Shown here in pieces: positions 3,452 through 45,132 of a DNA stretch of 64,000 bases. A program made the translations under genes and the position numbers. The stretch comes from a virus. The notes under the pieces are model-generated. The model searched no databases and was not told the origin of the DNA. It saw only the letters and a list, made by a program, of their open reading frames with translations. The DNA lies in IMG/VR virus record IMGVR_UViG_3300045988_175328, positions 32,001 to 96,000 of that record, one strand, 5' to 3'. The number at the start of each line of letters is the position of its first letter. The stretch's first letter is position 1.

Positions 3452-3452
3452 G

Positions 3453-3481
3453 TTGTTAAATTTTACTAATAGTAGTATAAT
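3453..3481 (+). promoter_or_regulatory. sigma70-type promoter candidate (TTGTTA-17 nt-TATAAT)
   Basis: TTGTTA at 3453-3458, exact 17-nt spacer, TATAAT at 3476-3481, 36 nt upstream of the ATG at 3517. Confidence 0.4.
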
Positions 3482-3516
3482 AATATTGTAATATAGTACA
3501 TTAAGGAGGTCTTACA

Positions 3517-5310: not shown

Positions 5311-7587
5311 ATGGATATTTTAATTAAAAAACGCAATGGTACAAGTGAACCATTAGACGTGGAAAAAACAAAACGTATGATTTCTTTTGCCTGTAAAGGA
5401 CTTGAAGATTGCAATCCACTTGATTTAGAAATGGATGCGAAACTTCAGTTTGTTGAGAACATGACAACAAAAGAAATTCAAAAGATTTTAATTCAGTCGG
5501 CTATCGAAAAAGTAATTCAAAAAGTAGATGATGGATTCGGCAATCGAGTGAATCGAATGACATCTAATTGGCAATATGTGGCGGCACGATTATACTTATT
5601 TGATCTATATAAAGAAGCTGCTATTGCACGAGAATATACTACTTTTGGATATGGATCTTATATAGAATTAATTAAAAAATTAATTGTATCTGGTAACTAT
5701 AATGAAGATATTTTTTGCAAATATTCTTATGCAAATCTTGTAGAATTAAGTTCTTATATCAAACCAGAACGAGATTATTTATTTAATTACGAAGGCGTTA
5801 AATTGCTTTCTGATCGCTATCTTGTTAAAGGATTTAATAAAGAAGTATATGAACTGCCACAAGAACGATTTATGACGATTGCAATTCATTTAGCATCAGT
5901 CGAAAAAGATAAAGTATATTGGGCTAAAAAGTTCTATGACATGCTATCTTTATTAAAGATGACAGTGGCAACACCAACACTTGCTAATGCCGGAACTAAT
6001 TTTCCACAATTAAGTTCTTGTTTTATCTCGGCAGTAGATGATAGCTTATCTTCTATTTACGATGTAAATACTAAGTTCTCTCGTGTTTCTAAAGAAGGCG
6101 GAGCTCTTGGTATTTATCTTGGAGATGTGAGAGCTATAAATTCTACAATTCGTGGCTATAAAAATTCTTCAGGCGGAGTTATTCCTTGGGTGCGTTTGTA
6201 TAACGATACGGCTGTAGCCGTCGACCAGTTAGGTAAACGTAAAGGTTCAACTTCTATCACGCTCGACATCTGGCATAAGGATTTATACGAGTTTATTGAA
6301 CTTCGTACAAACAATGGCGACGATCGTCGTAAGGCTCACGATATTTTTCCAGCGATTTCTATTCCTAATATTTTTATGGAGCGATTGATTGCTCGCGAAA
6401 ATTTCTCTTTGTTTGATCCATATGAAGTCAAAAAAGAAATGGGTTATACATTATCTGATTATTTTGACGATGTAAATTCTAAAGAATTTTCTAAACGATA
6501 TCAAGAGTGCGAAGCAAACAAAAAGATTTCTCGTATCGAAGTTCCAGCTATGGATATTATGAAGAAAATCATGAAGTCTGCTGTAGAAACAGGTACACCA
6601 TTTATTTTCTTCCGAGATACAGTAAATCAAGCAAATCCTAATAAACATCGAGGTATGATTAAATCATCTAATCTTTGTCATGAGATTACTCAGAATATGA
6701 GTCCTTCAATTCTCAAAGAAAGCATTGAAGAAAATGGATACGTAGTCGAACGATTTATTCCCGGTGACATGGTTACATGTAATCTTAATTCTATTAATTT
6801 AGGGCGTTATAATAAAGAAACGGCAGCTGAAGATATTTCAACACAAATTCGCATGCTTGACAATGTAATTAGCGTTAACATGTTCCCGACAGTAGAAGCT
6901 GGTATTACATCCAATAAATATCGCGCGATCGGTCTTGGCACTAGTGGATATCATCATTACCTCGTTAACAATAATATTAAATGGGAATCTGACGAGCATT
7001 TAAAAGAAGCTAATTCTTTGTTCGAAGATATTGCTTACTACGCTATTAAAGCTTCGATGGAACTTGCTAAAGAGCTTGGTCCGTATCCAGAATTCTATGG
7101 TTCTGAATGGCAAAATGGTATATATTTTGAACGCCGCGGATACATTTCTCCACGATGGCAAGAATTAAAACAAGAAGTAATGAAATATGGTATTCGTAAT
7201 GGATATTTAATTGCAATTGCTCCAACAGGAAGCACTTCTAATATTGCTAACACAACTGCTGGTATTGACCCTATCTTTAAAAAATTCTTTATCGAAGAAA
7301 AGAAAGGCAGCTTTACACCTAAAACGGCGCCAGATTTAAATAGTAAAAATATGTGGCTATATAAAGAAGCCCATACAATTGACCAACAATGGTCTATTAA
7401 AGCTTGCGGTATTCGTCAACGTCATGTTGACCAGGCCCAATCTTTTAATCTTTACATTACTCCAGAAATTTCAGCAAAAGAAATTTTTGATATGTATGTG
7501 TCTTGCTGGAAAAACGGAGTAAAAACTATTTATTATATTCGTAATCAATCTTTAGAAATGGACGAGTGTACAAGTTGTTCATCTTAA
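5311..7587 (+). CDS. nrdA: ribonucleoside-diphosphate reductase, class I alpha subunit (with ATP-cone)
   Basis: ORF track 5263..7587; start moved to ATG 5311 behind AGGAAAGGA. ATP-cone-like N-terminus KRNGTSEPLDVEKTKR, active-site SSNLCHEI, C-terminal CTSCSS redox tail. The beta subunit lies two genes downstream. Confidence 0.88.
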   Translation: MDILIKKRNGTSEPLDVEKTKRMISFACKGLEDCNPLDLEMDAKLQFVENMTTKEIQKILIQSAIEKVIQKVDDGFGNRVNRMTSNWQYVAARLYLFDLYKEAAIAREYTTFGYGSYIELIKKLIVSGNYNEDIFCKYSYANLVELSSYIKPERDYLFNYEGVKLLSDRYLVKGFNKEVYELPQERFMTIAIHLASVEKDKVYWAKKFYDMLSLLKMTVATPTLANAGTNFPQLSSCFISAVDDSLSSIYDVNTKFSRVSKEGGALGIYLGDVRAINSTIRGYKNSSGGVIPWVRLYNDTAVAVDQLGKRKGSTSITLDIWHKDLYEFIELRTNNGDDRRKAHDIFPAISIPNIFMERLIARENFSLFDPYEVKKEMGYTLSDYFDDVNSKEFSKRYQECEANKKISRIEVPAMDIMKKIMKSAVETGTPFIFFRDTVNQANPNKHRGMIKSSNLCHEITQNMSPSILKESIEENGYVVERFIPGDMVTCNLNSINLGRYNKETAAEDISTQIRMLDNVISVNMFPTVEAGITSNKYRAIGLGTSGYHHYLVNNNIKWESDEHLKEANSLFEDIAYYAIKASMELAKELGPYPEFYGSEWQNGIYFERRGYISPRWQELKQEVMKYGIRNGYLIAIAPTGSTSNIANTTAGIDPIFKKFFIEEKKGSFTPKTAPDLNSKNMWLYKEAHTIDQQWSIKACGIRQRHVDQAQSFNLYITPEISAKEIFDMYVSCWKNGVKTIYYIRNQSLEMDECTSCSS

Positions 7588-17453: not shown

Positions 17454-20400
17454 ATGAATTACAATAATATAACTCCAGAAATGGTTATGTCTATGGATTT
17501 ACAAGAGCTCGTAAAACTTGATTACGCTAAGCTTCCTGAAAAGTCAAAGCTTGCGGTAATTAAAAAAGACCCAGTTATGTGGGCTAAAGCTTTTATTTCT
17601 TCTTATTCAATTGAGCAAGAAGAATATGTTCCATGGACAGCCAGATGGTATCAAGCTGAAATGCTTAGAGATAGGAGTTTACGTAAAGTATATCGATGTG
17701 GTCGTCGGTGTATTGCCGGCGATACATTAATATATGATCCTGAAACTAATAGCTCTATTTCAGCTAAAGAATTGTTCGATACCCGACAGGATGATTTCTT
17801 TACAGTGGCTTGCTTGGATCATGATTTCAAAACAGAGCAGATGCCTCTAGCTAAAATATATGAAAATGGTGTAAAACAAGTATATACAATAACGACAGAA
17901 TACGATAAACAAATTACTGTTACAGAAAATCATCCATTCTTAACACAAGTAGGATGGAAAGAATTAAAACATCTTCGTGTTGGAAATTTAATTGCAGTCA
18001 TTCAAGACGAAGGTATTTTATCAAAGTATGTCGATATCGACAAACAAACAATTGAATTAATACAAAAAGAATTAAATAAAGAAGTAAGTATCGAAAGTTA
18101 TTCAGATCTAATGCTTTATGCAGAAGAGGCTGGACTTGAAACAGTTTACGATATTCTTGATGGCGATTTGGCATGGGAACGAATTAAATCAATTCGATTA
18201 CGTGGCACAGAAATGACATATGATGTGTCCGTACCAGAATATCATAATTTTATTGCGAATGGATTTATCACTCACAATACTGGTAAAACAGAAACAATGG
18301 TTATCGAAGCATTGTACAATTGTTTCACTCGAGATAACTTTGTTCATATGTTTGTAACGCCATACGAAAACCAAGTTCGATTAATTTTCGATAATTTAAA
18401 ATCTAAGATCGATTCCTCGCCAAGGATTCGAACAGCACTCACTCGGTCGACACGGTCGCCGTACGTGATGGAATTTAACAATAAATCAAAAATTGTTGGA
18501 TTTACAACGGGCGCAAGTTCTGGTAGTAGTGCTGCCTCTATCCGCGGATGGCGTAGTGACTGGATCTCACTCGATTAAATAATACTATTGTAATAGTTTA
18601 AATAGTCCATTTATTTGGTAACAAGTAAATGTTGAGTTAAATCTCAAGAGTCTATCTAATTGCTGGGAACCCCTAAAGCTTAAAGTGCCTTTGGGCTGCG
18701 AAAGCAGAAATAAATCTTTAAGATGATATATGGTTAAATCCTAAGTATTGTAAACAATGGGCAATCAGCAGCCAAGTTAGTATTATAATTAATATTAAAA
18801 GGTTCAACGACTATCCTGAGAAGGAGTACTATGTAAGCGCATAGGAAATGGTAGAAATCCTACAAAGGATTAAGATATAGTCTATGCTTTATCGAAAGAT
18901 AAAGGTGCGAGTAATGTCGCCGGCTAGAATTAGCGAATCTAGTTGAATTAATATCAGGAAATGGATAATTAAATAATAGTTCATTTAAAACGCCGTTAAA
19001 CAACGAAACTCCTAAGAAGGACAACGATGTACCAAGCTCATTAGTTAATAATGAGTAGTGTTCAACGACTAGGGATGAAATAAGCTCCCCACGAAAGCGG
19101 TGAAACCTACTACAGTCTTATCGTCAAGTTTTATTCTGTAGTACGGAAGACATAGTCTAAACTGGACCAGAACTGACTGGTCGATGAAAATGAAGGTAAC
19201 TTCCAGAGCGCAAGATAAAGAGCTTGCGGTTAATAACAAATTGTATCTAGGTGAAGGTGATTTCGACACAGTATATGCTCTTTGTATGGAACGTGCTAGT
19301 ATCGGAATGACATGTTCATCGACACCAACCGGTAGACGATCTAAGTTTTATGACATTTGTACTCAGAAGAGCCTCGGGTTAAAAATGGCCCCAATATTAA
19401 GCAATTAATGATTGAAAACCTTTTGAAATGCTGGGACTTCCTTTAAGGAAAATCAGCAGCGAAGCTTCTTAAATTTAAGAAGAACGTTCAACGACTATCC
19501 CATTTGGGAGTAGGGTCAAGCGACTCGAAGCAGAAGGCGTCCTATTGGGACGAAGATATAGTCTGAGCTACATAGAGATATGTAGAAGGTTGCAAGTAGC
19601 GAATGCAATCGTAACAATACTGTTAAAGAGCATTACCATCCCGCACAGCATAGTCCTCTATATTCTCCAGAAATGGAGAAAGAATTCAGGGCGACATTCG
19701 ATAAAAATGCGTATGTACATGAAGTACTTGCAGAATTTGGTATCGAAGAAGCTGGCGTGTTTGATAAAGAAGCTCTCGAAAGAGCGACTCGCATGGACAA
19801 TTATGTCTATAATGACGAGATCAAACCGGTACATAATGAATTTAATTTGCGCTCAGCAAAGAAAATTCACCTTCTTCCAGAAGGACAAACTACATATAAG
19901 TATAACATGTATAGAACTATGGCAGTTGACTGGGATAAATCGCAGGCGCCAACTTCTATACTCGTCTTAGATTATGACCACGAATGGAATAAATTCCGGG
20001 TCATTAATCGAACTATGATCGAGCCATCAGATTTTCATTATGACTTGGCGGTAAAAAAGATCATTAATTTAAATGCTATATATAATCCTACTCATATCTA
20101 TATTGATAGGGGCGCAGGTAAGTAACTTGCCTCAATATAAAGAAAGCACATATATTTATATTGGATAATGCGGAATTAAGCGAGAACTCTAAGTTAAATA
20201 ATATGAGAACTCGAACCGAAGGCATTGCTAAGTAATGTCAGGGGCAGAGCATAGAAGTTGAAAAGATATAATACTTCCACGAGTCCGCATCACAGTTGTG
20301 CTATTATACTGTGAAAAAATATGCCGAACTTACAGGAAACTATAAGAACTACAAGATAAAAAACTTGTAGGATAACAAATTGGAGTATCAGATAGAAGCT

Positions 20401-34890: not shown

Positions 34891-37800
34891 GTGTATTCAT
34901 TTAAAAGCGAAATTTTAAAAGATTTACCAGGCATTTTTGTCGAAGTTAACTCTGCTCGTAAAAAGTTATACGACGACAGCCAATTCGGTAAAACAGATGC
35001 TGTATTGTGTATCGGTACTGCTTTTGACGGCCCTAATGGCTTCCCTGTACCAATCTACGATCCATCTTACGCTGTATATACATATGGCGATACTTATGAC
35101 CGCCGCACAAAACGAGAAGTTGACTTAGTTGCAACTATCTCTGACGCATATAATAATGGTTGTCGTACAATTTATGGCTTCCGTATCGGCGGCAAAGAAG
35201 CATATAAAGATTTTGCTTTCCGTGATGACAAAGCGATGTACCTTCGTGTAAAATCTACTTTCCCATCCAATAAAGCAAAACAAGTATACTTCACATTCGA
35301 TAATACTCCTGGTGAAGAAAAAATTACAATCTACAAACCAGTTTCCAAAGCAAGCTTGTATGAAAAATATAATGCATTGATCGACGAAACAACTGAAGTA
35401 ATCAAAGTTGATATCAACCTTGGTTTCTCTGGTGCTGGTTTTAATTCTAATACACAATTAACTGAAGTGTTACGTTATGTAAATCGTCATGTGTTAAATA
35501 ACGTTCTTGTTCTTTCTATCGTAAATGATGAAGGTCAAGATATCACACTTCGTAACGACTCTTATGATTTAGCCCTTGGGTCTTTATTCCCAGGAACTTA
35601 CTTCATTGGTCGTAGTCATTCTTTAGTTCCAATTCGTACTGAAGTTCGTACTCATATCATTAAAGGTGAAAACGCAATTAAACCTTATGATTCTTATGAT
35701 GGCGTATACTTCACTGCATTACGAATCAATACTGATGTATCTTCTCGTTACCCAATTTATGCAGGTTCCGATAAAGAAATGAACGAAGTATTGACTAAAG
35801 TTGGTATTAAAATGTTGTCTCATAACGACTATCTTGAATCTCCAATGCTTTCTAATTTAGCGTTCGCAGAAGACGAAGTCGATTATGAAGAAACAAACAT
35901 GACTAACTTCGAAAAATATGTTCGTCTTGGTTCTGGTTTTGCTATTACAGCAACAGCACATAAACGTACTAACACTAAAGGAGAAGAATTAGTTCCTCGT
36001 GTTAAAGAAACAGTAGCTAAAGATCCTCGTTATGTTGTTGGTATTAAAGATGGTGCATATAGCTTACTTCAAAATGCTGATATGCCTTATCGTGTACTAG
36101 GCGCTCAAATTGCTGCAGATACAGTAATTGGCGGCCGCTTACCAAAACCTAAAGATTTCTTACGTGCATTTGCTCAAGAAGTTTCTGTATTTAATTCTGT
36201 ACAAAATGGAGCTGTTGTTCCTAATACAGAATTAATTTCTATTACTCCTAAAGTAGATAGCATGGATACAAAAACATCTGCTCGTAAATTTAAATTTACA
36301 TTTAATAAAATTAAAGACGTAGAAAAAATTGTTCCATCCGCTATTTTCTCTAATGAAGTATTCACATATGTTCCAGTTGTAGATAATAAAGAAGCTTTAA
36401 TGCTTGACAAAAAAGTTTACAAAACTGGACAAGTATTCTTCATTAAAGATGAACAAAAAGTTGTAACAGTAACTGCTGAAAATAAACTTGAAGAGTTCGT
36501 CTCCAAAAATCAAAAATTCAAACACTTTGTTGCTGGCGACAAAATTATTGAATCTTTTGTATTAGGTGAAGATGTTCACTTTAAAGAAGTGGCAGATTTA
36601 TCTGGATTACAATATGATACAGACACTACAGGTATTTTAAAAGACGTTGATTCTACTGCAGGTTTATATTATGTAACTCGTGCAGCAGCTGCAACAGGAA
36701 CACCTATCAATGCAAAATATGTATTGATGACTGTAAATGGTGTATTAACTGTTGCGTCCTATGAAGATGGCAAAGTAACTCCTATCGGTAACTATGACAT
36801 CATCATGGATAAAGATACTCGTGATGATAAAGTAATCGCTTACATCGAAAACTTCGATAACGTAGAAAATAAAGTTGCAATCAGTGTTACTGATTATAAC
36901 TATCGTACATTATCTGAATTTGTAAGCGACTTAAAAGAAAATAAAACATTCTCTCGTTTATTTGATATCAAATTAACAGATAATGGCGTCATTGAAAAAG
37001 ATACTTTAATCGAAGATATCTTAGAACCAGTATTGAAAGATACAGAATTAGTATTGGGCGAGCTTCCTGCTCATAAAGTAATTGATTACGATTACTCTTT
37101 ACGTATTCCTTACCGTACTTCTGATAACTTTGCTCGCCAATTGGCACAACATTGTTTGAATACAGAAATGCGTACAGCTCATACTCATGGCCTTATCGGC
37201 GCAGAACGTATCTCTGATTATACATTATCTGGTGTTGCTCAAAAAGTTGAAGCATTAAAAACATTGTCTTTAGGCTTAAACTTAAAACGTGAAAACGGTC
37301 GAGCAGTTATCGATGATGACGGAATGCCAGTAAACATTGGTGGATCCATTTCCATGGTGTTCATGCAAAACAATGTACCAGTATTTAATTCTACATATTC
37401 TTATGTAGGTAATGGTGGTTCTGCATATGCTGGTTTAGTATCTGCATTAGATGTAGAACAATCCCCAACTAACCAAAAATTAAAAGCAACTCCATTGTTT
37501 GATTTAACAACGGCACAATTATCCGACTTAACAGCTCGCGGCATAGTAACAGCTAAAAATACATATACTCGTGGATATGTAATTACTGATGGTTGCACTA
37601 TGGCTGATAGCTCTGATCCTATGTCTCGTTTAAATACAGTTCGTATTATCGATGCTGTAGAACGAGTAATTCGTGAAGTTTGTGAACCATTCATTGGTAA
37701 ACAAAATAAAATTTCCGTACGTAATGCTATTCAAACTGGATTAACTTCTCGTTTGAATGAATTGAAAGGCAAATTATTGTACGATTATACATTCGATATT

Positions 37801-37926
37801 GTTAATGACGTAGAAGTGTTACAATACACTTACATCGATATCAACTATGTAATCATGCCGTACAACGAAATTCGTCAAATCAATAACTACATTCAAGTAC
37901 GTCAACCGGGCGCAATCGCTCATTAA
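34891..37926 (+). CDS. contractile tail sheath protein (long, 1011 aa)
   Basis: N-terminal LPGIFVEVNS...AVLCIGTAFDGPNG and C-terminal GIVTAKNTYTRGYVITDG...RLNTVRIIDAVERVIREVCEPFIGKQN..VRNAIQTGL match conserved sheath termini. The tube gene follows. Confidence 0.75.
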   Translation: MYSFKSEILKDLPGIFVEVNSARKKLYDDSQFGKTDAVLCIGTAFDGPNGFPVPIYDPSYAVYTYGDTYDRRTKREVDLVATISDAYNNGCRTIYGFRIGGKEAYKDFAFRDDKAMYLRVKSTFPSNKAKQVYFTFDNTPGEEKITIYKPVSKASLYEKYNALIDETTEVIKVDINLGFSGAGFNSNTQLTEVLRYVNRHVLNNVLVLSIVNDEGQDITLRNDSYDLALGSLFPGTYFIGRSHSLVPIRTEVRTHIIKGENAIKPYDSYDGVYFTALRINTDVSSRYPIYAGSDKEMNEVLTKVGIKMLSHNDYLESPMLSNLAFAEDEVDYEETNMTNFEKYVRLGSGFAITATAHKRTNTKGEELVPRVKETVAKDPRYVVGIKDGAYSLLQNADMPYRVLGAQIAADTVIGGRLPKPKDFLRAFAQEVSVFNSVQNGAVVPNTELISITPKVDSMDTKTSARKFKFTFNKIKDVEKIVPSAIFSNEVFTYVPVVDNKEALMLDKKVYKTGQVFFIKDEQKVVTVTAENKLEEFVSKNQKFKHFVAGDKIIESFVLGEDVHFKEVADLSGLQYDTDTTGILKDVDSTAGLYYVTRAAAATGTPINAKYVLMTVNGVLTVASYEDGKVTPIGNYDIIMDKDTRDDKVIAYIENFDNVENKVAISVTDYNYRTLSEFVSDLKENKTFSRLFDIKLTDNGVIEKDTLIEDILEPVLKDTELVLGELPAHKVIDYDYSLRIPYRTSDNFARQLAQHCLNTEMRTAHTHGLIGAERISDYTLSGVAQKVEALKTLSLGLNLKRENGRAVIDDDGMPVNIGGSISMVFMQNNVPVFNSTYSYVGNGGSAYAGLVSALDVEQSPTNQKLKATPLFDLTTAQLSDLTARGIVTAKNTYTRGYVITDGCTMADSSDPMSRLNTVRIIDAVERVIREVCEPFIGKQNKISVRNAIQTGLTSRLNELKGKLLYDYTFDIVNDVEVLQYTYIDINYVIMPYNEIRQINNYIQVRQPGAIAH

Positions 37927-37941
37927 TTAAATAAATGAAAG

Positions 37942-37975
37942 ATAGGAGCTCGTAATCGGGCTCCTATTATTTCCA
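37942..37975 (+). terminator. intrinsic terminator candidate
   Basis: ATAGGAGC (37942-37949) pairs with GCTCCTAT (37960-37967), followed by TATTTCC. Confidence 0.45.
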
Positions 37976-38003
37976 TTCTTGTTAAGAGAAGTAAAGGATA
38001 TAA

Positions 38004-38474
38004 ATGGAATTAGGTATCAATTTTAGATATGATAGCAAAAGGCGTGCGGCACTTATCTTAGTTTTTGATCGAGAGAGACTATTGCTTAAAGCAATTAGTG
38101 TTTTAAGAAAAAAACTACAGATTCCTTATCGAGAACTCGGAAAAACTAAAGATGGATTATTTTATGTTAAATATAAAGGAATGCTCGCTGCTTATATATA
38201 CTGGTGGATACATCGTATATTTAAAGCAGAATCTGCTAAAGAACACTATCCTTTATTTAAAGAAATATTCCTTCAAGATTTCGAGGGAGAATTGCCATAC
38301 GAAGAACTTCTTGCTTTAACTAATTCAGTCGAAACAGATGAACAAATAACGATCGGTGTTCCATCTGACTCGACGCTAACATGGTGTAAACGTATCCAGA
38401 GATGGCTACCGTTTAAAACTAGAATAGCATCGAGAACAGGAAAGAAAAAAGAGTATTTCCTGCTTTTAAAATAA
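38004..38474 (+). CDS. free-standing, N-terminally shorter paralog of the intron-encoded protein at 38883..39497
   Basis: ALILVFD..LLLKAISVLRKKL..YVKYKGMLAAYIYWWIHRIF and C-terminal WLPFKTRIASRTGKKKEYFLL align with [41 protein letters not shown] and [22 protein letters not shown]. Confidence 0.55.
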   Translation: MELGINFRYDSKRRAALILVFDRERLLLKAISVLRKKLQIPYRELGKTKDGLFYVKYKGMLAAYIYWWIHRIFKAESAKEHYPLFKEIFLQDFEGELPYEELLALTNSVETDEQITIGVPSDSTLTWCKRIQRWLPFKTRIASRTGKKKEYFLLLK

Positions 38475-38528
38475 ATATTTGTTTTAAAGGAGAGCGGCTC
38501 CTAACAGTCGCTAAATTAAACTAGACAT

Positions 38529-41500
38529 ATGGCATATCAAAATGACACTAGTGTAACAAGTGCATCTCAATACACTCGTTCTTACACTACTTTCTCTGGC
38601 TGTGATATCGTTGCAACTTTCGGATCCGAAGTTGTAGCTGAAGTACAAGGTATTACAGTTTCTATCAACCGTGAGAAAGCTCCGGTCAACAAACATTTTT
38701 GATATATGCTGAATCAAAACCTATAGGCCGGAGTAAAACTTTGCTAAAATCGGTGAAAGAGCACTAACACCGAGGATAAGAATATGATATAATAATATTG
38801 TGTTCAATGTCCGTAGAGACTTGAGACACTATTCTCTTAATGATGTATCCATTCCCAGCTAGGGAAATAACGGAGGTTTTTAATGAATGAAGTACTTGCT
38901 TGGTATTTAGGACTTAGTTACCAAGAAGATCAGTATCCAAGAAGTGTTGCCAGTGATTTACATAGTTATTTTATTCGCGGATTAGTTGAACAACTTAATC
39001 CATTTTATTATCGTGAAAAACGATCACTACTTATTTTGGATCTCGTATATCATTCAAAAGATGTTTTAGAATCGATAAAGAAAATTTTCAAAGAAAAATT
39101 ATTAATCGATTCTAAAGTTAAAGAGCTCGATAATAAATATATTTTAAATGTTTCTGGAAAGAATGCTAAAATTATTTTCTGGTGGTTATATCATGAAGAT
39201 TTTAGTACAAGTTATTCAGAAGAAATAGTAAATATATTAACAGATAAAGAAATAACTGATTTAAATAATATGAGCGACGACGATTCCTTACTTGAATTAA
39301 TCGGCGCTTATTATTCTGAAGATAATCATATTTCTTTTAATTGTCCTTATTATGAATCATTAGATCTAGCTAAAAAAGTAAGAAATTTACTTTCGTTTAA
39401 AACACAACCAGTGACTCATACAAAAGGAAAAAGAAAACATTATCAGCTTTATATTCCAAAAAACCAATCATTAATACGCAAAGCATCGAATGAGTAATCA
39501 TTCGTAAAGATATAGTCCACTTAATTGGGTTATACATTTGGTTCAGCTGAGCCTCGTTCTATCTCGAGAGGTAATAATAACTCTTTTGCTTCTCCTTTGC
39601 AGTAATGCAACGCATAATTAAACTCTGTGATTAAATGTGCTATACATACTTACAACTTAAGTCATGAGTAAGTAGCACGTATAGTCCACATATCTGGTAA
39701 CAGGTATGTGCCAAGTGGTAACACTCGGAGATTCACTGAATTGCTGGAAAGTCCTAAAGCTTGAATAACTACAACATAATATCGTACAAGTACGATATAA
39801 GCGTGAATGTTGCGAAAGCAGAAAAAATATTCAAGATGGTATATGGTTAAATCCTAAGTACTGTAGCAATGGACAATCAGCAGCCAAGCCCGTAAGGGAA
39901 GGTTCAACGACTATCCTGAGAAGGAGTAGGGCTCAAGCGAGTGGGTGAAAATCCCTTAAATCGAAGTAGTGAAGGTCCTTTAGAAAAGGATTAAGATATA
40001 GTCTGTGCTTTATCGAAAGATAAAGGTGCGCGCAGTGGCGCCGGCTAAGAGTAGCGATCTTAGTTGAACGAACAACTCTCATATAAACCCTACGGTTTTA
40101 TATATTGAAATTAACCTCCTAAAGTACTATAATAATAGTATATAGTTACGAAAGGAGGTGCCTCGTGAATAAAAGTTTTAAAGTAGAAATTTATCCAGAT
40201 CAAGATCAGGAAATTTTAATTGAGAAAACATTTGGCTGCGTAAGATATACTTACAATTTTATGTTAAATTTAAAACAACTTCTGTATAAAGAATTTGGAA
40301 TATCAATAACTTTAAATAGGATATCCAAAGTTCTTACGATGCTAAAAAAACTTAAGCCATGGCTTGCAGAAGTTGATAAATGTGCATTGCAATATGTTCT
40401 CAAAGATCTTTTTTTTGGATATGAAAAATTCTTTAATGGCGGAGGATTTCCTGAATTTAAAACTAAACGAGGGAAGAATTCTTATCGTACAAATAGTCGT
40501 TTACATTTAGATCAAGATAAAAAGATGATTAAGATCCCTAAAGTCGGCTGGATTAAGTTTAGAGATAAAAGTAAATTTATTGGTCTTAAAAAGATTTACA
40601 ATATCACTATTTCTAAAAGTGCTAGTGGAAAATATTTTGCCAGTATTTCAGCCGAAGTCGAAATCGAAGCTTTGCCTAAAACCAAAGTAAACTGCGGTAT
40701 CGACTTAGGATTAAAAGATTTTTGTATCTTGAACGATGGAACAGTATTTGAGAATCCTAAATTTTTGGCAAGTAAAGAAAAACGACTCAAAAGGTTACAA
40801 AAGTCTTTAAATCGAAAGAAACTAGGATCTAAGAATTATTTTAAAGTTAAAGCTAAAATAGTTAGACTTCATGAATATATAGCAAATTGTCGAAAAGATT
40901 ATCTGCACAAAATATCTATATTCTTAGTTAGAACTTATGATATTATTTGTGTTGAAACTCTAAAAGTTAAGAATATGCTTAAGAATCATAAGTTAGCTAA
41001 AGCTATTATTGACGTTAGTTGGTATGAATTTTGTCGACAGTTAGAATATAAATGTTTATGGTATGGAAAGAAATTTGTACAGATTGGGACTTATTTCGCA
41101 TCATCACAAACATGCTCTAATTGTGGCTTCAAGAATATAGAAGTTAAGAATCTTGATGTTCGAGAATGGAATTGTCCAGAATGTGGAGTTCATCACGATC
41201 GAGATATTAACGCAGCTATAAATATTCTCAACGAAGGCTTAAAATTAGCTTAATTTCAATATATAGAACCGCAGGGCATGCGGGGATAGCCTACTGTCTT
41301 AGTATAAGACGTATAGTGAATTTATATTTACTATACGCAACTATTGGGTAGGAACCTCGTCACTTTAAGTGGTGAGAGGATGTCAGATGCTGGAAACCCC
41401 TTAGAGCCTTTGGTACCAAAGTGTGACAATCTAAAGGATTGGGCAATCAGCAGGCAGCTTTATCTATTAGATATTGCGCCTCAACGACTATCCGTAAGGA

Positions 41501-43145
41501 GTACACCATAATAGCCGGTGGAAGCGCAGAGCTCCCTAGAATAATATAGGTATTGCTATATTCTCCTTTTTGTATTATAATAAATATATAAGGAGGTCTT
41601 AAATATGGCGCAATACAATTATAATTTTGATATTTTAGAAAAAGAATCACCTGAAAAATATTATTTTCTTGGCTTTATCGCAGCAGATGGAGCATTAACA
41701 AATGGCGGAATTGTTTTTGAACTAAACAAGAGAGATGGATATATGGTAAAGAAATTAAATGATTACATATGTCCTGAAAAAGAAGTTAAGTTTAGAGAAG
41801 AAACAAATTCTTGTCGAGCAACATTTTATAATCTTGAAATGACAAAGAAACTAAAAAAATATTTTTCAATGACAAGCAATAGAAAAACCGAAGAGATTAG
41901 ATTCCCAGAAGTACCAGATGAATATCTTCGAGATTTTATTCGTGGGATCATCGATGGTGATGGAACTATCGATACGACTAAAGGATACAAAGGAAATAAA
42001 ATTTATATTGGTGCTCGACTTCGAATCTTAGGTAATGAAATTTTTCTAAAAGAATTAAATGAGAAAACAAAATTATTATATCCACATAATACAAATGCTG
42101 TAAACAGAAAAGGTAAGGAAAATATACATATTATAACTTATAACTTTAAAACAGCGCGCGAATTATTGAAAATAATATATTATGACGGATGCCTATGTTT
42201 AAAACGAAAATTCGATCGTTCTAGGGATGAAGATATAGTCTCTACATTAGTGAGAGCTAAATGATAATCATTCTCAAAAAAAGAGGGATCGCCGGCACTA
42301 TTGTATTCACACTATTTGATCGTGATGCATTAGTCGACGCATTGGCTATTCGCGCAGCAAAAGCTGCGTATTTCCAACGTATTGGTGGTGATATCAATTA
42401 CCAACCATACACAATTACTGAATGGGATACTAAATTGACAGATATGGTAGTTAATACTTTATCTTCCAGTAACAGTTCCCAAATTGCATCCAGTAATCCA
42501 TTTAAACTTACTCAAAAAGTAGCTGTTCAATCTACTCCTAAATACTCCGATTATTCTTAATATAGTCCGTATGTTTAGTAATAAGCATATGTTAAACATA
42601 AATGTTTAAGGTCTCATCGAATTGCTGAAAACCCGTAAAGCTTAAAACGCTACAGCATAATTTTGAAAAACAAATAAGTGCGATAGTAACGAAAGTAAAA
42701 AAAGTTTTAAGATAGCGTATGGTTAAATCCTAAGCGCCACAACAATTGGCAATCAGCAGCGAAGCTCCAAATAGGAGAACGTTCAACGACTAGAGCAAGA
42801 TGCTCGTACACTCAAGCGAGTGGAAGTGGTGAGGGCCCATTTGATGGGTCAAGATATAGTCTATGCCTTAGTGAAAATTAAGGGAGCAACAATTTGTTGC
42901 CAAATAATAGTAGCGATATTATTTGAATATAACAGGAAATTCCGCCATTTGACATTACTTTATCTTTTGCAAATGAGTATGGTCAATCGGCAGTAATGGT
43001 TATCTACGGCGTAGAGATCTTAAATGAAGCTTCTAGTTTCTCTGTAGATTCTACTACGACTGATAAAGCATGTACTTACATTGCTCGTTCTGTAGATTAC
43101 TTGCAACCAGTAGAAAACAAATACTTATTGAATAACAATTACTAA
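38529..43145 (+). CDS. tail tube protein, split into four exons by four self-splicing elements
   Basis: Exons are 38529..38686, 39530..39572, about 42279..42551 (alternative starts 42264 or 42288) and 42936..43145, totalling 684 nt (227 aa). The joined product is [67 protein letters not shown]... It is colinear with the N-terminal domain of the paralog at 43429 (..[61 protein letters not shown]). It lies directly after the sheath gene. No SD sits close to the ATG. Confidence 0.75.
38687..39529 (+). mobile_element. group I intron A of the tube gene (carries ORF 38883..39497)
   Basis: P1: exon CTCCGGT pairs 7/7 with GCCGGAG (38727-38733), with a U-G wobble at the splice U (38686). R-like TGTTCAATGTCCGTAGAGACT (38802) and S AAAGATATAGTCC (39506). 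Ends ..AATTGGG| only 11 nt after S. The ORF sits between R and S. Confidence 0.6.
38883..39497 (+). CDS. intron-encoded protein (LAGLIDADG-like or maturase-like; acidic catalytic motif not evident)
   Basis: RBS ACGGAGG. The only motif-like segments are WYLGLSY and YFIRGLVEQ. It has a paralog at 38004..38474. Confidence 0.55.
   Translation: MNEVLAWYLGLSYQEDQYPRSVASDLHSYFIRGLVEQLNPFYYREKRSLLILDLVYHSKDVLESIKKIFKEKLLIDSKVKELDNKYILNVSGKNAKIIFWWLYHEDFSTSYSEEIVNILTDKEITDLNNMSDDDSLLELIGAYYSEDNHISFNCPYYESLDLAKKVRNLLSFKTQPVTHTKGKRKHYQLYIPKNQSLIRKASNE
40105..40133 (+). promoter_or_regulatory. sigma70-type promoter for tnpB (TTGAAA-17 nt-TATAAT)
   Basis: TTGAAA 40105-40110, 17-nt spacer, TATAAT 40128-40133, 32 nt upstream of the GTG start. 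Confidence 0.45.
40165..41253 (+). CDS. tnpB: TnpB (IS200/IS605-family OrfB, RuvC-type RNA-guided nuclease)
   Basis: GTG start after AAAGGAGG. Ruv[12 protein letters not shown], Ruv[14 protein letters not shown], zinc finger CSNCG..CPECG, Ruv[16 protein letters not shown]. Confidence 0.85.
41230..41386 (+). ncRNA. candidate TnpB omega RNA scaffold / transposon right end (5' boundary approximate)
   Basis: A 133-nt non-coding tail follows tnpB, with hairpins CCGCAGGGCATGCGGGG and CCTCGTCAC-TTTAA-GTGGTGAGAGG just before the proposed element end at 41386. The guide would be read from 41387 onward (ATGCTGGAAACCCC..). Confidence 0.4.
41605..42264 (+). CDS. LAGLIDADG homing endonuclease (two-motif, monomeric type), encoded in intron C
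   Basis: RBS TAAGGAGG. Motifs [13 protein letters not shown] and [13 protein letters not shown]. The 3' end of the ORF overlaps the intron S element. Confidence 0.8.
   Translation: MAQYNYNFDILEKESPEKYYFLGFIAADGALTNGGIVFELNKRDGYMVKKLNDYICPEKEVKFREETNSCRATFYNLEMTKKLKKYFSMTSNRKTEEIRFPEVPDEYLRDFIRGIIDGDGTIDTTKGYKGNKIYIGARLRILGNEIFLKELNEKTKLLYPHNTNAVNRKGKENIHIITYNFKTARELLKIIYYDGCLCLKRKFDRSRDEDIVSTLVRAK
42552..42935 (+). mobile_element. group I intron, ORF-less member of the IStron-related family (copy 3)
   Basis: Inserted after TCCGAT (42551). P1 is GAT|TAT paired with ATAGTC, with a U-G wobble at the splice U. P ATTGCTGAAAACCC (42621), Q AATCAGCAGCG (42750), R GTTCAACGACTAG (42781), S AAGATATAGTCT (42851). 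Ends TATAACAG| (42935). Joining gives [15 protein letters not shown], matching the paralog's YLMD-ELPNFDITLSF. Confidence 0.75.
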
Positions 43146-43152
43146 TAAGTTA

Positions 43153-43195: not shown

Positions 43196-43432
43196 TTGGA
43201 AAATACGAATCAAGTCTTTCTGTATCTAAACAAAGTTTTAGATGATTATATTAAAGAAGCTGTTCAACGAAGAGTTTCTTTAGACGAAGCTAATCTTGAG
43301 ATGAAAGAAGTTTGTCTTAAAGAATTAGAGCAAAGATCAATAGAGCTTAAACCACATATAAAAACACTTGTTGAAAATAGAGTTAAACAATATCTTAAAG
43401 TCTACCACTTAAAAGTGAGGTATTTAAAATGA
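43196..43432 (+). CDS. hypothetical protein
   Basis: TTG start 7 nt after GAGGT; ATGA coupling to the next gene. Confidence 0.45.
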   Translation: MENTNQVFLYLNKVLDDYIKEAVQRRVSLDEANLEMKEVCLKELEQRSIELKPHIKTLVENRVKQYLKVYHLKVRYLK

Positions 43433-45132
43433 CACAAGAAAAAGAGATTGTTCAAACTTCTAAATACACAAGAACATACAATTCATATAGTGGATGCGAT
43501 ATTGTAGCTTCTATTAATATTTCAATACCAGGGCAAGAACCTATTCATCATGTGTTCGGCAGCATTCAAACACTTTCTTATAGCATCCATCAGGAGAAAA
43601 CTCCAGTTAGAGCAATCGGGAATGTAAATGCAATTACGTATGTAGATGGGCCCAGAACAATTGCTGGCACTATTGTATTTACAGTTTTAGATAAGCATGT
43701 AATATATGAAATTTTTGAAGAATTAACAAAGAAGGGGCAATATATCAATGAACATTATTTAATGGACGAGCTCCCTAATTTTGACATTACTTTATCTTTT
43801 GCAAATGAATATGGCCATAATAGTTCTATCAGTATATATAATTGCACTATTATGGATGAAGGACAAGTCATGTCTGTTAATGATATTTTGACAGAAAATA
43901 CATATCATTATTATGCGACTGATATTGACTACATGACTGAATCTGAAAGCTATTGGACAATTAATCGTCAAAAGATTATTGAATCAAATCCTTGGCTTAG
44001 TCCTCAGAACTTTAAACCGCAACCACAGGTTCCGGCAAAAGAAATAGACGATTGCCCATTAGAAAAAATTAGTCGATATAAGTATCGAACATATGCTGAA
44101 TATGTTACTGCTTTAAATAAGGCATACGAAAAACATCGAGATGAATTAGTTGAAGCGCAGAAGACTGATCGTATTGTAGCTTGTCGTCATAAGTATCATA
44201 CTCTTGTCGAAGATGCTAAAAAATATTATAAAATTGGCGATATGCCATATGGATTAAATAGAATTCCTAAACGAAGACCAGCTGTTGTCAATAAAGATTA
44301 CGATAAATTCAGAACACAAATTCGTAAAACTTCAAGAGCTGTTCCTGATTATGACAACTGTAGAGTTAGAAAACATACTGGTCCAATCCAGGCGCCAGAT
44401 TTTAATATAAGAACATCTCGTACTTATAATAGAATTATAATTCCAGATTTAAATATGCCGCGATTAAGATATAATTCATATCGTGACTATCCAGAATTTG
44501 AGAGTCGAGAACGATATGAATCATCTAGAAGCTATCCTGAATTTAGATCTAGGAATTATAAAAAATTCTCGACACGAGGATACCCTATATATAAAACTAA
44601 TTATGCTAAGCATTATAGAGAAGATCCTCCAGAATTTAATTCTAGACTTCGACCTCAAAAATATAAAGTTAATGTCCCGGAATACGAGACTCATAAAAGA
44701 AGAAAAGTCGATATTATGGTCCCAGAATTTGAATCAAGAAAGGCTCCTGAAAGAAAAAGAGAAGGATATCCTGAGTATACAACTCAATATCCAGAGCATA
44801 GAAAAATTGTTCCTCCAGAATTTCCAAGAGTTAGGAATTTAAGAGATAGAGTCCATGATTATGTTCCTGATGAAATTATCGATAGAAACCATGACCATGA
44901 CAATAAACCAATTTTTAAAAATAGAAAACGAGAAAAAATTATCGAGAAAGAAAAAGAAATACATAAAAAGCCAGAAATTAAAGAAAAAAAACGTTTAGAT
45001 TTTGTTCTTAAGAAAAAAGATTCTAGTATGGTGATTGAAGAAGTCAAGAAAGAAGAAACTAAGCCTAAAGACAAATTTAGAATTCGTTCTGTTATCGAAA
45101 AGAACGCAACACCAGATCGAGGTGATAGCTAA
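43429..45132 (+). CDS. tail tube paralog with a long basic C-terminal repeat extension
   Basis: The N-terminal ~200 aa are colinear with the spliced tube protein. The C-terminal region (about nt 44446-44870) carries about 8 copies of a (Y/V/P)PE(F/Y)xxR motif, then a KEKE-rich tail. Confidence 0.65.
   Translation: MTQEKEIVQTSKYTRTYNSYSGCDIVASINISIPGQEPIHHVFGSIQTLSYSIHQEKTPVRAIGNVNAITYVDGPRTIAGTIVFTVLDKHVIYEIFEELTKKGQYINEHYLMDELPNFDITLSFANEYGHNSSISIYNCTIMDEGQVMSVNDILTENTYHYYATDIDYMTESESYWTINRQKIIESNPWLSPQNFKPQPQVPAKEIDDCPLEKISRYKYRTYAEYVTALNKAYEKHRDELVEAQKTDRIVACRHKYHTLVEDAKKYYKIGDMPYGLNRIPKRRPAVVNKDYDKFRTQIRKTSRAVPDYDNCRVRKHTGPIQAPDFNIRTSRTYNRIIIPDLNMPRLRYNSYRDYPEFESRERYESSRSYPEFRSRNYKKFSTRGYPIYKTNYAKHYREDPPEFNSRLRPQKYKVNVPEYETHKRRKVDIMVPEFESRKAPERKREGYPEYTTQYPEHRKIVPPEFPRVRNLRDRVHDYVPDEIIDRNHDHDNKPIFKNRKREKIIEKEKEIHKKPEIKEKKRLDFVLKKKDSSMVIEEVKKEETKPKDKFRIRSVIEKNATPDRGDS

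What the first reader, a model, noticed from the sequence alone, without database searches (positions are those of the whole stretch)
39632..41386. IStron-type chimera in a phage: group I ribozyme + promoter + TnpB + omega-RNA-like tail ending at the 3' splice site
Seen: the element starts with a full group I core (P 39739, Q 39874, R 39901, S 39993). It continues with an imperfect palindrome (ATATAAACCCTACGGTTTTATAT, about 40081-40103) and a TTGAAA-17-TATAAT promoter. Then comes an intact-looking 362-aa TnpB with the RuvC D/E/D contexts and zinc finger present. The tail is structured, and its last hairpin (CCTCGTCAC..GTGGTGAGAGG) sits 7 nt before the CAG| end. Established: IStrons, known from Clostridioides difficile and the Bacillus cereus group, fuse a group I intron to an IS200/IS605 element so that insertions into genes are phenotypically silent. 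Established: the TnpB omega RNA derives from the right end and reads its guide from the flanking DNA, so the ribozyme 3' splice site and the guide RNA overlap. Inference: the TAM-like motif is the GAT at 39629-39631. The guide would be ATGCTGGAAACCCCTTAG.., which is the P4 core of the host intron, so the nuclease would target IStron-free copies of that intron. No TnpA is present in this window.
Basis: partly seen in the sequence, partly recalled or inferred. Interest (0 to 1): 0.9.

Follow-up and report, generated by a model that had tools for sequence, protein, structure and literature searches.

The report
Phage IStron nested inside another intron
A self-splicing transposon that carries an RNA-guided nuclease (a TnpB-only IStron) sits inside the catalytic core of another self-splicing intron in a large phage's tail-tube gene; the type of element is already known, but this nesting and the many related phages with an unoccupied, perfectly matching target site offer a natural test of RNA-guided intron homing.

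Summary
Window 39632-41386 is a 1755-bp group A (IS200/IS605-type) IStron. It holds a full-length group I ribozyme (Rfam 82.6 bits), a conserved TTGAAA-17-TATAAT promoter and an intact TnpB. The TnpB matches ISDra2 TnpB at E=4e-97, with D180/E264/D347 and the zinc finger conserved. The 133-nt right end is structured, covaries across relatives and ends in TCAG.

Both boundaries are fixed to the base. More than 25 independent insertions of relatives lose similarity there. About 28 related phage contigs carry the same host intron uninterrupted (..CTCTGTGAT|ATGCTGGAAACCCC..).

The element sits inside J3/4 of a LAGLIDADG-encoding group I intron (39573-42278) in the tail-tube gene. The predicted guide is therefore the host ribozyme's P4-P5 core. 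30 of 32 retrieved sites carry GTGAT plus an identical 20 nt.

The same nested arrangement occurs in two other assemblies that are 3% diverged. The differences there are mostly synonymous in tnpB and structure-preserving in the right end, so the arrangement is viable.

No TnpA lies in the window, but a phage-borne relative carries one.

The element class and its guide/splice-site overlap are published. New here are the intron-in-intron context and a large, TnpA-less, phage-borne family. Splicing and cleavage remain untested.

The parts
39627..39631 (+). GTGAT: target or TAM-like motif, and the 5' exon half of the IStron's P1. It is also the end of the host intron's P3 (..GUG) plus the first two bases of J3/4 (AU).
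   Evidence: Flanks of independent copies read TTGAT, TCGAT, CTGAT, GTGAT or ATGAT. The Rfam alignment of the uninterrupted host intron places the site in J3/4.
39632..41386 (+). The whole IStron, 1755 bp.
   Evidence: Similarity to more than 25 other copies starts and stops at these bases. About 28 homologous empty sites join 39631 directly to 41387.
39632..39686 (+). Left end. P1 is GAU|UA (39629-33) paired with UAGUC (39682-86), with the U39631-G39684 wobble. The P1 extension holds the subterminal hairpin ACTTACAAC-TTAA-GTCATGAGT (39648-39669).
   Evidence: RNA minimum-free-energy fold, z=-4.65. Both stems covary among copies, and the hairpin resembles the right-end hairpin (GTCATGAG versus GTGGTGAG).
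39684..40025 (+). Group I ribozyme core, P2 to P9, with P7.1/P7.2-type insertions.
   Evidence: Rfam RF00028, 82.6 bits, model positions 1-253.
40088..40117 (+). 5' arm of a long inverted repeat that encloses tnpB. It overlaps the local palindrome at 40081-40103 and the -35 box.
   Evidence: 27 of 30 bases are complementary to 41247-41276. The same duplex is predicted in most relatives.
40105..40133 (+). Sigma-70-like promoter TTGAAA-17-TATAAT for tnpB. The ribosome-binding site AAAGGAGG is at 40151-40158.
   Evidence: 11 of 12 matches, the best in the region. Conserved in IStron and intron-less relatives.
40165..41253 (+). tnpB, 362 aa, intact.
   Evidence: Pfam. PDB match to ISDra2 TnpB, E=4e-97, with catalytic D/E/D and CxxC..CxxC conserved. 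dN/dS of 0.13-0.23 against relatives.
41247..41276 (+). 3' arm of the inverted repeat. It competes with the local stem at 41269-41283.
41254..41386 (+). Right end, an omega-RNA-like scaffold. It has stem 41269-73/41279-83, closing stem 41290-95/41346-51 (CCUACU/GGGUAG, including one U-G wobble), two inner hairpins and terminal hairpin 41355-63/41369-79, then AUGUCAG with the terminal G at 41386.
   Evidence: On 26 copies, 88% of cells pair against 35-46% when the partners are slid. 21 of 37 pairs carry compensatory changes, and 0 of 500 shuffles reach the observed value. The 8 differences from the sister lineage are all in loops or keep the pairing.
41387..41406 (+). Predicted guide template and protospacer ATGCTGGAAACCCCTTAGAG. 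It is the last base of the host intron's J3/4 followed by P4, J4/5 and P5.
   Evidence: Rfam partial match at 41388-41490 and the alignment of the uninterrupted intron. GTGAT plus an identical 20-mer occurs in 30 of 32 retrieved sites.
39573..42278 (+). Host group I intron (intron 2 of the tail-tube gene). The IGS GCTTCTC is at 39589-95, the P3 5' strand at 39622-29, the P3 3' strand at 41525-31, the LAGLIDADG ORF at 41605-42264, and P7'/P9 at 42230-42262.
   Evidence: The IStron-free, ORF-less homologues L113 and L121 score 67 bits full length. The exon junctions are fixed by uninterrupted tail-tube homologues. P10 covaries among relatives. The 3' terminal base is A in this window, which is unexplained.
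38529..43147 (+). The tail-tube gene in four exons: 38529-38686, 39530-39572, 42279-42551 and 42936-43147. Intron 1 is 38687-39529 and intron 3 is 42552-42935.
   Evidence: Presence or absence of each intron in relatives. The 227-aa spliced product aligns with tail-tube proteins of Bacillus jumbo phages.

Best explanation
Window 39632-41386 is a non-autonomous (TnpB-only) group A IStron, that is, an IS200/IS605-type transposon fused to a group I intron. It has transposed into the 3-nt J3/4 junction of a LAGLIDADG-encoding group I intron in the tail-tube gene of a large myophage (relatives are about 230 kb).

Shown by sequence and comparison:
- The element's anatomy.
- Its exact ends.
- The empty sites in related phages.
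- Purifying selection on tnpB and on the right-end structure.
- Persistence of the nested state in a lineage about 3% diverged.

Inferred mechanism:
1. In the late pre-mRNA the IStron forms P1 (GAU|UA with UAGUC).
2. A roughly 27-bp inverted-repeat stem loops out tnpB and brings the right end to the ribozyme core.
3. The IStron splices at U39631 and G41386.
4. This rebuilds J3/4-P4 of the host ribozyme, which can only then fold and splice, so the two introns must be removed in order.
5. Separately, transcripts from the element's own promoter give TnpB and, from their 3' end, an omega-RNA. Its scaffold is the right end and its guide is the adjoining host-intron sequence AUGCUGGAAACCCCUUAG.
6. 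The complex would cut GTGAT+ATGCTGGAAACCCC.. in IStron-free copies, whether in a co-infecting relative or at a donor site after excision. Recombinational repair would then copy the IStron in.
7. The resident copy is protected because GTCAG, not YGAT, precedes its protospacer.
8. Movement to new YGAT sites needs a TnpA supplied in trans.
For: - Ribozyme.
- TnpB homology and active site. Selection on tnpB.
- Boundaries.
- Empty sites and a perfect protospacer in 30 of 32 retrieved sites.
- The uninterrupted host intron is a bona fide group I intron, and the insertion point is in J3/4.
- Five other independent copies restore open reading frames in the sense orientation.
- Right-end covariation.
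- Inverted-repeat stem.
- Conserved promoter.
- The same nested arrangement occurs in two ENA assemblies at 96.9% identity. There are no differences in the exons, in the host-intron 5' part or in the IR/promoter, 24 of the 32 tnpB differences are synonymous, and all 8 right-end differences preserve the structure.
- A relative with the same LE type and a near-identical terminal RE hairpin (its TnpB is 53% identical), carrying TnpA plus TnpB, lies on a viral contig at L015 6200-8394.
- Published mechanism for this class of element: PMC4227781, bioRxiv 10.1101/2023.11.20.567912, PMC13521648, PMC13565253.
Against: - There are no RNA or biochemical data. Splicing, omega-RNA formation, TAM preference and cleavage are all untested.
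- GTGAT differs from the TTGAT TAM of ISDra2 at position -5.
- Within the same TnpB clade some copies sit after TATTAA instead of YGAT, and the TnpB tree does not separate the two types. The TAM therefore cannot be read safely from the flank.
- No TnpA lies in the window or in the flanks fetched around the close (>=67%-identity) copies, so current transposition is unproven.
- The inverted-repeat stem is long and AU-rich, unlike the 6-10 bp balanced stem described for group A IStrons (PMC4227781).
- The host intron's last base is A rather than G in this window, so efficient host-intron splicing is not guaranteed.
Confidence: 0.8

Rival explanations
1. It is a pure homing intron that no longer behaves as a transposon. 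TnpB has taken the place of a conventional intron-encoded homing endonuclease. The element spreads only by RNA-guided cleavage of empty alleles between co-infecting phages, and it reaches rare new sites by reverse splicing directed by the IGS (UAGUC reading GAU).
For: More than 100 distinct TnpB variants at 70% identity or above occur on phage-sized contigs. No TnpA was found in the flanks fetched around the close (>=67%-identity) copies. tnpB is under purifying selection. The conserved target GAU is exactly what the IGS pairs with. ORF-less introns in the same window share the GAT|TA...CAG| ends. [quoted passage not shown]
Against: Copies sit in many unrelated genes that share only YGAT. The left and right ends carry similar subterminal hairpins of the IS200/IS605 kind. 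A relative with TnpA exists in a phage contig. Intron-less TnpB-plus-right-end relatives also occur.
Confidence: 0.12
2. It is a dead or disabling insertion. The IStron has wrecked the host intron, this tube gene copy is non-functional, and TnpB is a decaying relic.
For: The insertion lies in the catalytic core, in J3/4. The host intron ends in A rather than G. A downstream ORF (43429-45132) shares the N-terminal tube-like domain.
Against: The nested state is kept in a lineage 3% diverged. There the exons and the host-intron core are unchanged, tnpB changes are mostly synonymous, and right-end changes preserve the structure. The catalytic residues are intact. 40 of the 41 full-length family TnpB matches carry no stop codon. 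The A-ending host intron is also the commoner form among IStron-free relatives.
Confidence: 0.05
3. TnpB here is nuclease-active but serves the phage rather than the element. It would be a weapon against related co-infecting phages, cutting their tube-gene intron, without efficient copying of the IStron.
For: Perfect targets exist in most relatives. The target is an essential ribozyme core that cannot easily mutate, which is my inference. The family is abundant in one phage clade.
Against: Nothing separates this from homing, because the same cut gives both outcomes. Only 1 occupied lineage against about 28 empty ones was found. That ratio argues neither for nor against.
Confidence: 0.03

Closest known systems
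Group A IStrons (CdISt1 of Clostridioides difficile, FnISt1, LbISt1 and others; Tourasse 2014, PMC4227781)
   Same: A group I ribozyme with P7.1/P7.2-type insertions sits at the 5' end. An IS200/IS605-type ORF B (TnpB) follows P9.x. The element inserts after a pentanucleotide ending in GAT and ends in TCAG. There is no target duplication. It has subterminal palindromes and an inverted-repeat stem enclosing the ORF. Its size of about 1.76 kb matches the ORF-B-only or delta-ORF-A forms. Related copies lie inside unrelated genes in the sense orientation.
   Different: This one is carried by phages rather than bacterial chromosomes. The target is relaxed to N-Y-G-A-T. The inverted-repeat stem is about 27 bp and AU-rich, which resembles group B. 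It is inserted in another intron's catalytic core rather than in a coding exon. No remnant of tnpA is present.
IS607-type CboIStron (Zedaveinyte et al., bioRxiv 10.1101/2023.11.20.567912; Mortman and Sternberg 2026, PMC13521648)
   Same: The omega-RNA scaffold is the right end and the guide is the downstream exon, so splicing and guide maturation compete. A terminal stem-loop sits just before the 3' splice site. TnpB maintains the element by cutting empty sites.
   Different: That element has a serine-recombinase TnpA, a TGGG TAM, a 5' exon ending in G and a CGG terminus. Here the ends are the IS605 type (GAT / TCAG), and nothing has been tested experimentally.
ISDra2 (IS200/IS605) TnpB-omega-RNA
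   Same: The TnpB is homologous over its full length (E=4e-97), with identical RuvC D/E/D residues and zinc finger. The target is TTGAT-like. The guide is read from the DNA flanking the right end.
   Different: ISDra2 has no ribozyme. This TnpB is shorter (362 against 408 aa) and lacks the C-terminal tail. The TAM is not known.
Phage group I introns with homing endonucleases (T4 td, Twort, SPO1) and twintrons of organelles
   Same: Self-splicing introns sit in essential phage genes and spread by nuclease-induced gene conversion in mixed infections. A nested intron must be removed first.
   Different: The inner element's nuclease is RNA-guided and belongs to a transposon. In the papers I could search, I found no report of a group I-in-group I twintron in a phage or of an IStron inside an intron.

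Membership tests
Group A (IS200/IS605-type) IStron | A complete group I ribozyme forms the 5' part of the element. | tested here: met
   Rfam RF00028, 82.6 bits, model positions 1-253, at 39684-40025. P1 is predicted at 39629-33/39682-86.
Group A (IS200/IS605-type) IStron | The ribozyme belongs to subgroup IA2. | tested here: inconclusive
   A roughly 50-nt P7.1/P7.2-type insertion lies after P7, and the ribozyme resembles phage introns. No formal subgroup classifier was available.
Group A (IS200/IS605-type) IStron | An IS200/IS605 ORF B (TnpB) lies downstream of P9.x on the same strand. | tested here: met
   Pfam PF12323, PF01385 and PF07282. Match to ISDra2 TnpB at E=4e-97.
Group A (IS200/IS605-type) IStron | The element inserts 3' of a conserved pentanucleotide ending in T (TTGAT, ATTAT or TTTAT), with no target duplication and no terminal inverted repeats. 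| tested here: met
   GTGAT in this window. Other copies read TTGAT, TCGAT, CTGAT or ATGAT. The empty sites show no duplication.
Group A (IS200/IS605-type) IStron | The 3' terminus is TCAG, and the terminal G serves as the 3' splice site. | tested here: met
   The end ..GGATGTCAG| is invariant in 25 of 25 copies. Use of the G as the splice site is inferred from the ORFs and the ribozyme that precise removal restores.
Group A (IS200/IS605-type) IStron | Subterminal palindromes at both ends act as TnpA binding sites. | tested here: met
   The left-end hairpin at 39648-69 and the right-end hairpin at 41355-79 share the 3' arm GT..TGAG and covary. Binding by TnpA was not tested.
Group A (IS200/IS605-type) IStron | A short (6-10 bp), compositionally balanced inverted-repeat stem encloses the ORF. 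| tested here: not met
   An inverted-repeat stem exists, but it is about 27 of 30 bp and AU-rich. It fits the group B description in PMC4227781 better. This is a descriptive trait rather than a defining one.
Group A (IS200/IS605-type) IStron | Multiple copies lie at unrelated loci, mostly inside genes and in the sense orientation. | tested here: met
   At least 7 independent sites were found. Five of the five tested restore ORFs.
Group A (IS200/IS605-type) IStron | A TnpA (Y1 HUH) transposase is present or available in trans. | tested here: inconclusive
   None was found in the window. A full TnpA-plus-TnpB relative lies at L015 6200-8394 in a viral contig. Its TnpB is only 53% identical.
Group A (IS200/IS605-type) IStron | The element self-splices at its own boundaries. 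| not testable with these tools
   This needs RT-PCR or in-vitro splicing.
TnpB-omega-RNA (OMEGA) nuclease | Intact RuvC D/E/D residues and a zinc finger. | tested here: met
   D180, E264 and D347, plus C317/C320/C337/C340, align with D191, E278, D361 and the CxxC pairs of ISDra2.
TnpB-omega-RNA (OMEGA) nuclease | A conserved structured RNA overlaps the 3' end of tnpB and the right end, and is followed by the guide. | tested here: met
   Covariation on 26 copies. Rfam has no matching family. The only hit is weak, HgcC at 16 bits, far below its gathering score of 50. That an RNA exists is inferred.
TnpB-omega-RNA (OMEGA) nuclease | TAM-dependent, guide-dependent DNA cleavage. | not testable with these tools
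   This needs a TAM-library or in-vitro cleavage assay.
Twintron (an intron within an intron that needs ordered splicing) | The inner intron interrupts an essential structural element of the outer intron. | tested here: met
   The insertion lies between U and A of J3/4, separating P1-P3(5') from P4-P9 by 1755 nt.
Twintron (an intron within an intron that needs ordered splicing) | Sequential splicing is observed. | not testable with these tools
   This needs analysis of RNA intermediates.

The most novel reading that the evidence does not exclude
In this clade of about 230-kb phages, TnpA-less IStrons persist because TnpB-omega-RNA acts as an RNA-guided homing endonuclease in mixed infections. 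The nested copy has chosen a protospacer that cannot escape: the P4-P5 catalytic core of an intron that must splice for the tail tube to be made. It rides a second drive as well, the host intron's own LAGLIDADG enzyme. That would make a three-layer selfish element in which the ribozyme core serves at once as catalyst, guide template and nuclease target.
Probability: 0.4. Interest if true: 0.8.

Novelty: new variant of a known kind. Interest (0 to 1): 0.66.

Why it matters
IStrons and the conflict between their guide RNA and their splice site are established, but only in bacterial chromosomes and in E. coli reconstitutions. This locus adds three things.

- A natural population test. One phage lineage carries the IStron. 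About 28 relatives carry the empty site with the TAM-like motif and a perfect 20-nt match. RNA-guided "intron homing" by TnpB has been suggested in reviews but not shown, and simple phage crosses could now test it.
- An extreme splicing dependency. An essential late gene needs the inner element to splice before the outer ribozyme can even fold. Any omega-RNA processing of that transcript destroys the tube mRNA. The trade-off between splicing and guide maturation should therefore be under unusually strong selection here.
- An unexpected reservoir. Compact (362 aa) TnpB genes under purifying selection are abundant in large phages without TnpA. This bears on why TnpB outlives its transposase, and it offers many natural TnpB/omega-RNA pairs for engineering.

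Tried and rejected
- Close phage relatives: INPHARED (megablast) has no close relative of this region, only short intron-core hits.
- Phage TnpB hits: the best hits (Clostridioides, Enterococcus and Bacillus phages, about 49% identity) gave no Rfam intron at gathering score. They did not help define the ends.
- Occupied sites: searching for the right-end/host-intron junction found nothing in viral contigs. In metagenome contigs it found only a chance palindrome in a high-GC contig, L134. The occupied relatives came from the protein route instead.
- Bacterial genomes: the scan of GTDB species representatives found no full-length match above 48% identity (partial matches up to about 63%), so no bacterial source or host was identified.
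- Omega-RNA in Rfam: Rfam has no omega-RNA family that matches. The HgcC hit (16 bits) is far below threshold, and I treat it as a hint only.
- Rfam misses: Rfam missed the ORF-containing host intron (L102) and the second IStron in L127 at gathering score. Absence of a hit is therefore not evidence of absence.
- Left ends of intron-less relatives: I tried to find them in the TnpB relatives that lack an intron and could not.
- TAM from the TnpB tree: I tried to link TAM type to TnpB phylogeny. The neighbour-joining tree is star-like and does not separate YGAT from TATTAA elements.
- Host intron 3' splice site: I considered G42263 and G42287. I rejected both in favour of 42278|42279, because uninterrupted homologues require ..SRGKRGIAG.. 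and P10 covaries with that exon start. This leaves a terminal A unexplained.
- Assembly artefact: I rejected this because two further assemblies from different samples carry the same arrangement.
Full report
**What is there.**

The window between a tail-sheath gene (34891-37926; distant tblastn matches to the sheaths of Bacillus phage 0305phi8-36 and Moorella phage MTATph1) and 43147 holds a tail-tube gene split into four exons.

- The exons are 38529-38686, 39530-39572, 42279-42551 and 42936-43147.
- I fixed the boundaries by comparing about 30 related viral contigs in which individual introns are present or absent.
- I also aligned the 227-aa spliced product with uninterrupted tail-tube proteins of Bacillus jumbo phages. 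These share 47-52% identity, and ..REKAPVYT.G...PRS.SRGKRGIAG.. is invariant across the junctions.
- Intron 2 (39573-42278) encodes a LAGLIDADG-type endonuclease (41605-42264; Pfam weak, PHROG 4645 at E=5e-31).
- The reported element lies inside intron 2.

**Check of the observation.**

- Rfam scores 39684-40025 as a full-length group I intron at 82.6 bits.
- An RNA fold of 39624-39712 pairs GAUUA (39629-33) with UAGUC (39682-86). This puts the U39631-G39684 wobble at the 5' splice site, and a long P1 extension and P2 follow (z=-4.65).
- TTGAAA-17-TATAAT at 40105-40133 is the best promoter match in the region.
- The 362-aa ORF carries the three TnpB Pfam domains. It aligns over its whole length with ISDra2 TnpB structures (E=4e-97). 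D180, E264 and D347 align with the RuvC triad D191, E278 and D361 (ISDra2 residue numbers from my own knowledge), and both CxxC pairs are kept.

**Boundaries.**

A scan of IMG/VR with the TnpB gave 47 loci.

- BLAST of the left and right parts of the element against them shows similarity beginning at ..YGAT|TA.. and ending at ..GGATGTCAG|. The flanks are unrelated in more than 25 insertions.
- Independently, the 17-mer that would span an empty site (GTGAT+ATGCTGGAAACC) occurs in 32 viral contigs.
- About 28 of these are the same tube gene with the same intron 2, aligned continuously across the junction.
- 30 of the 32 have GTGAT followed by an identical 20 nt.

So 39632 and 41386 are the true ends. 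There is no target duplication, and IStron-free targets are common.

**Where exactly it sits.**

- ORF-less, IStron-free versions of intron 2 (L113, L121) are full-length Rfam group I introns at 67 bits.
- Their alignment assigns ACUCU-G-UG to P3, AUA to J3/4 and UGCUGG to P4.
- The IStron lies between the U and the final A of J3/4. P1-P3(5') of the host ribozyme is therefore separated from P4-P9 by 1755 nt.
- The IStron's own P1 borrows the last three bases of host P3 plus two bases of J3/4.
- The sequence after the right end, which a TnpB omega-RNA would carry as its guide, is the host ribozyme's P4/J4-5/P5.

**Right end.**

- An alignment of 26 distinct right ends supports five helices derived from the window's fold.
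- 88% of cells pair, against 35-46% when the partners are slid.
- 21 of 37 pairs carry compensatory changes, and none of 500 shuffles reaches the observed values.
- The structure was derived from one member of the alignment. This inflates the contrast somewhat, but RNAalifold independently recovers three of the helices.
- All copies end in TCAG, the terminus described for group A IStrons (PMC13565253).

**Inverted repeat.**

- 40088-40117 is the inverse complement (27 of 30) of 41247-41276, immediately after the tnpB stop.
- The same duplex is predicted in most relatives.
- It corresponds to the "IR stem" that encloses the ORF in IStrons (PMC4227781), but it is much longer and more AU-rich than described for group A.
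Its 3' arm overlaps the first stem of the right-end structure.
- This suggests a switch between a splicing-competent fold (IR stem formed, only possible in read-through pre-mRNA) and a guide-RNA fold. That is my inference, in line with the antagonism shown experimentally for another IStron (bioRxiv 10.1101/2023.11.20.567912; PMC13521648).

**Family behaviour.**

- Five further independent copies with both ends defined lie in the sense orientation inside coding sequences. Precise removal restores open reading frames of 173-213 codons. A sixth lies in a 222-kb contig after ACTGAT.
- 40 of the 41 full-length family TnpB matches have no stop codon, and dN/dS against the window copy is 0.13-0.23.
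- The protein database holds more than 100 distinct sequences at 70% identity or above, mostly on 220-235-kb metagenomic contigs.
- One genome per bacterial species gave no full-length match above 48% identity (partial matches up to about 63%).
- Some relatives have the same promoter, tnpB and right end but no ribozyme.
- Others have a different ribozyme 5' part inserted after TATTAA. The TnpB tree does not separate these types, so the modules recombine. The TAM of this particular TnpB therefore cannot be taken for granted.

**TnpA.**

- It does find a 144-aa Y1 transposase inside L015 6200-8394. That is a 2195-bp IStron in a viral contig with the same left-end type, inserted after ATCGAT, and an almost identical terminal hairpin.
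- A helper for trans-mobilisation therefore exists in this phage community, though its TnpB is only 53% identical.

**Is the nested state viable?**

A TnpB 98% identical to the window's is encoded on two ENA assemblies from different samples with the same neighbours. The locus is 96.9% identical to window 36164-41781 and collinear through the IStron. The differences are distributed as follows.

| Region | Differences |
|---|---|
| Sheath gene | 2.9% |
| Exons 1 and 2 | 0 |
| Host-intron 5' part | 0 |
| IR/promoter | 0 |
| tnpB | 32 nt, only 8 amino-acid changes |
| Right end | 8, all in loops or converting pairs to G-U or A-U |

The arrangement has therefore been inherited under selection. This argues strongly against a dead insertion or an assembly artefact.

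**Mechanism.**

The steps shown by sequence and the steps inferred are set out in the best explanation. In short, the inner IStron must splice first to rebuild the host ribozyme. The TnpB-omega-RNA made from the element's own promoter would cut GTGAT+ATGCTGG.. in IStron-free introns, and recombination would then copy the element in. The resident copy is shielded because GTCAG precedes its protospacer.

**Comparison and novelty.**

- The element passes the tests for a group A IStron except for the descriptive IR-stem length. Subgroup IA2, TnpA supply and splicing could not be settled.
- IStrons in phage genomes are known, namely the group B elements of C. botulinum phage c-st (PMC4227781). TnpB-only forms and the guide/splice-site overlap are also known.
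- In the searchable literature I found no IStron inside another intron, no group I twintron in a phage, and no large TnpA-less phage-borne IS605-type IStron family.
- I therefore class it as a new variant, chiefly a new context, of a known kind. Interest is moderate to high, mainly because the occupied/empty polymorphism makes RNA-guided intron homing directly testable.

Noticed in passing
window 42552-42935: Intron 3 of the tube gene (Rfam 73.9 bits) is absent from all of about 28 relatives. It has no ORF. It is about 70% identical to the IStron ribozyme through P9.2 and has the same ends (..CCGAT|TATTC..ATAGTCC ... ATAACAG|), but no TnpA-type hairpin. It looks like the free-standing intron lineage from which the IStron ribozyme derives, or an ORF-less derivative. 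How it arrived without a nuclease is unclear.
   Followed up: partly
window 18575-18956 (also about 18957-19200 and 19370-19585): Another intron of the same type (..TCGAT|TAAAT..AAATAGTCC ... AATATCAG|), 73% identical to the IStron ribozyme. Directly after it, CAACGACTAG and GACATAGTCT motifs suggest a further, degenerate or unusual intron that Rfam did not call. A third intron follows at 19370-19585.
   Followed up: no
window 42276-42279 and loci L102-L133: The exon junction fixed by homology and the covarying P10 put the 3' end of the host intron at A42278. About 11 relatives have G at this position and about 14 have A. A group I intron ending in A would be unusual.
   Followed up: partly
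L127 6984-8565 and L112 (reverse strand, about 5579-7161): In two relatives a different IStron (1582 bp, TnpB only 44% identical, ends GGTGAT|TTGGCGG...AAATTCAG|) sits in exon 3 of the same tube gene. The equivalent site in the window (42392|42393, ..GGTGGTGAT|ATCAATTACC..) is empty. This gene is a hot spot for introns and IStrons.
   Followed up: partly
L025 about 2345-3630 and L042 to 4659: Intron-less TnpB-plus-right-end elements lie in phage tRNA arrays. The right flank (AGGTTCAACTCCTACAGGCACCA) looks like the 3' part of a tRNA, so the guide would match a tRNA gene.
   Followed up: no
L037, L020, L031, L009, L015 (junctions): In all five ORF-restoring insertions the GAT before the element is read in frame as an Asp codon. 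This may only reflect codon usage in AT-rich genes.
   Followed up: no
L013, L015-L018, L021, L028, L034, L035, L045 (upstream of tnpB): A second left-end type occurs in the same TnpB clade. It is inserted after (T)ATTAA, has a different P1/IGS (CTAGTAGGG) and a TnpA-like hairpin (CTCGTGATTTTAATCGTGAG). This implies modular exchange of ribozyme 5' parts between elements.
   Followed up: partly
window 38004-38474 and 38883-39497: Two ORFs have no family hit in Pfam, and the 204-aa ORF also has none in PHROGs (the 156-aa ORF was not scanned there). One is 156 aa, lying free between the sheath and tube genes. The other is 204 aa, inside intron 1. Intron 1 itself (38687-39529) is not recognised by Rfam, although it has AAGATATAGTCC at 39507-39518 and is precisely absent in some relatives.
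   Followed up: no
window 43429-45132: The ORF after the tube gene repeats the tube N-terminal domain (..[25 protein letters not shown]..) and then continues into a long, repetitive, basic C-terminal extension (PEF/YPE repeats).
   Followed up: no
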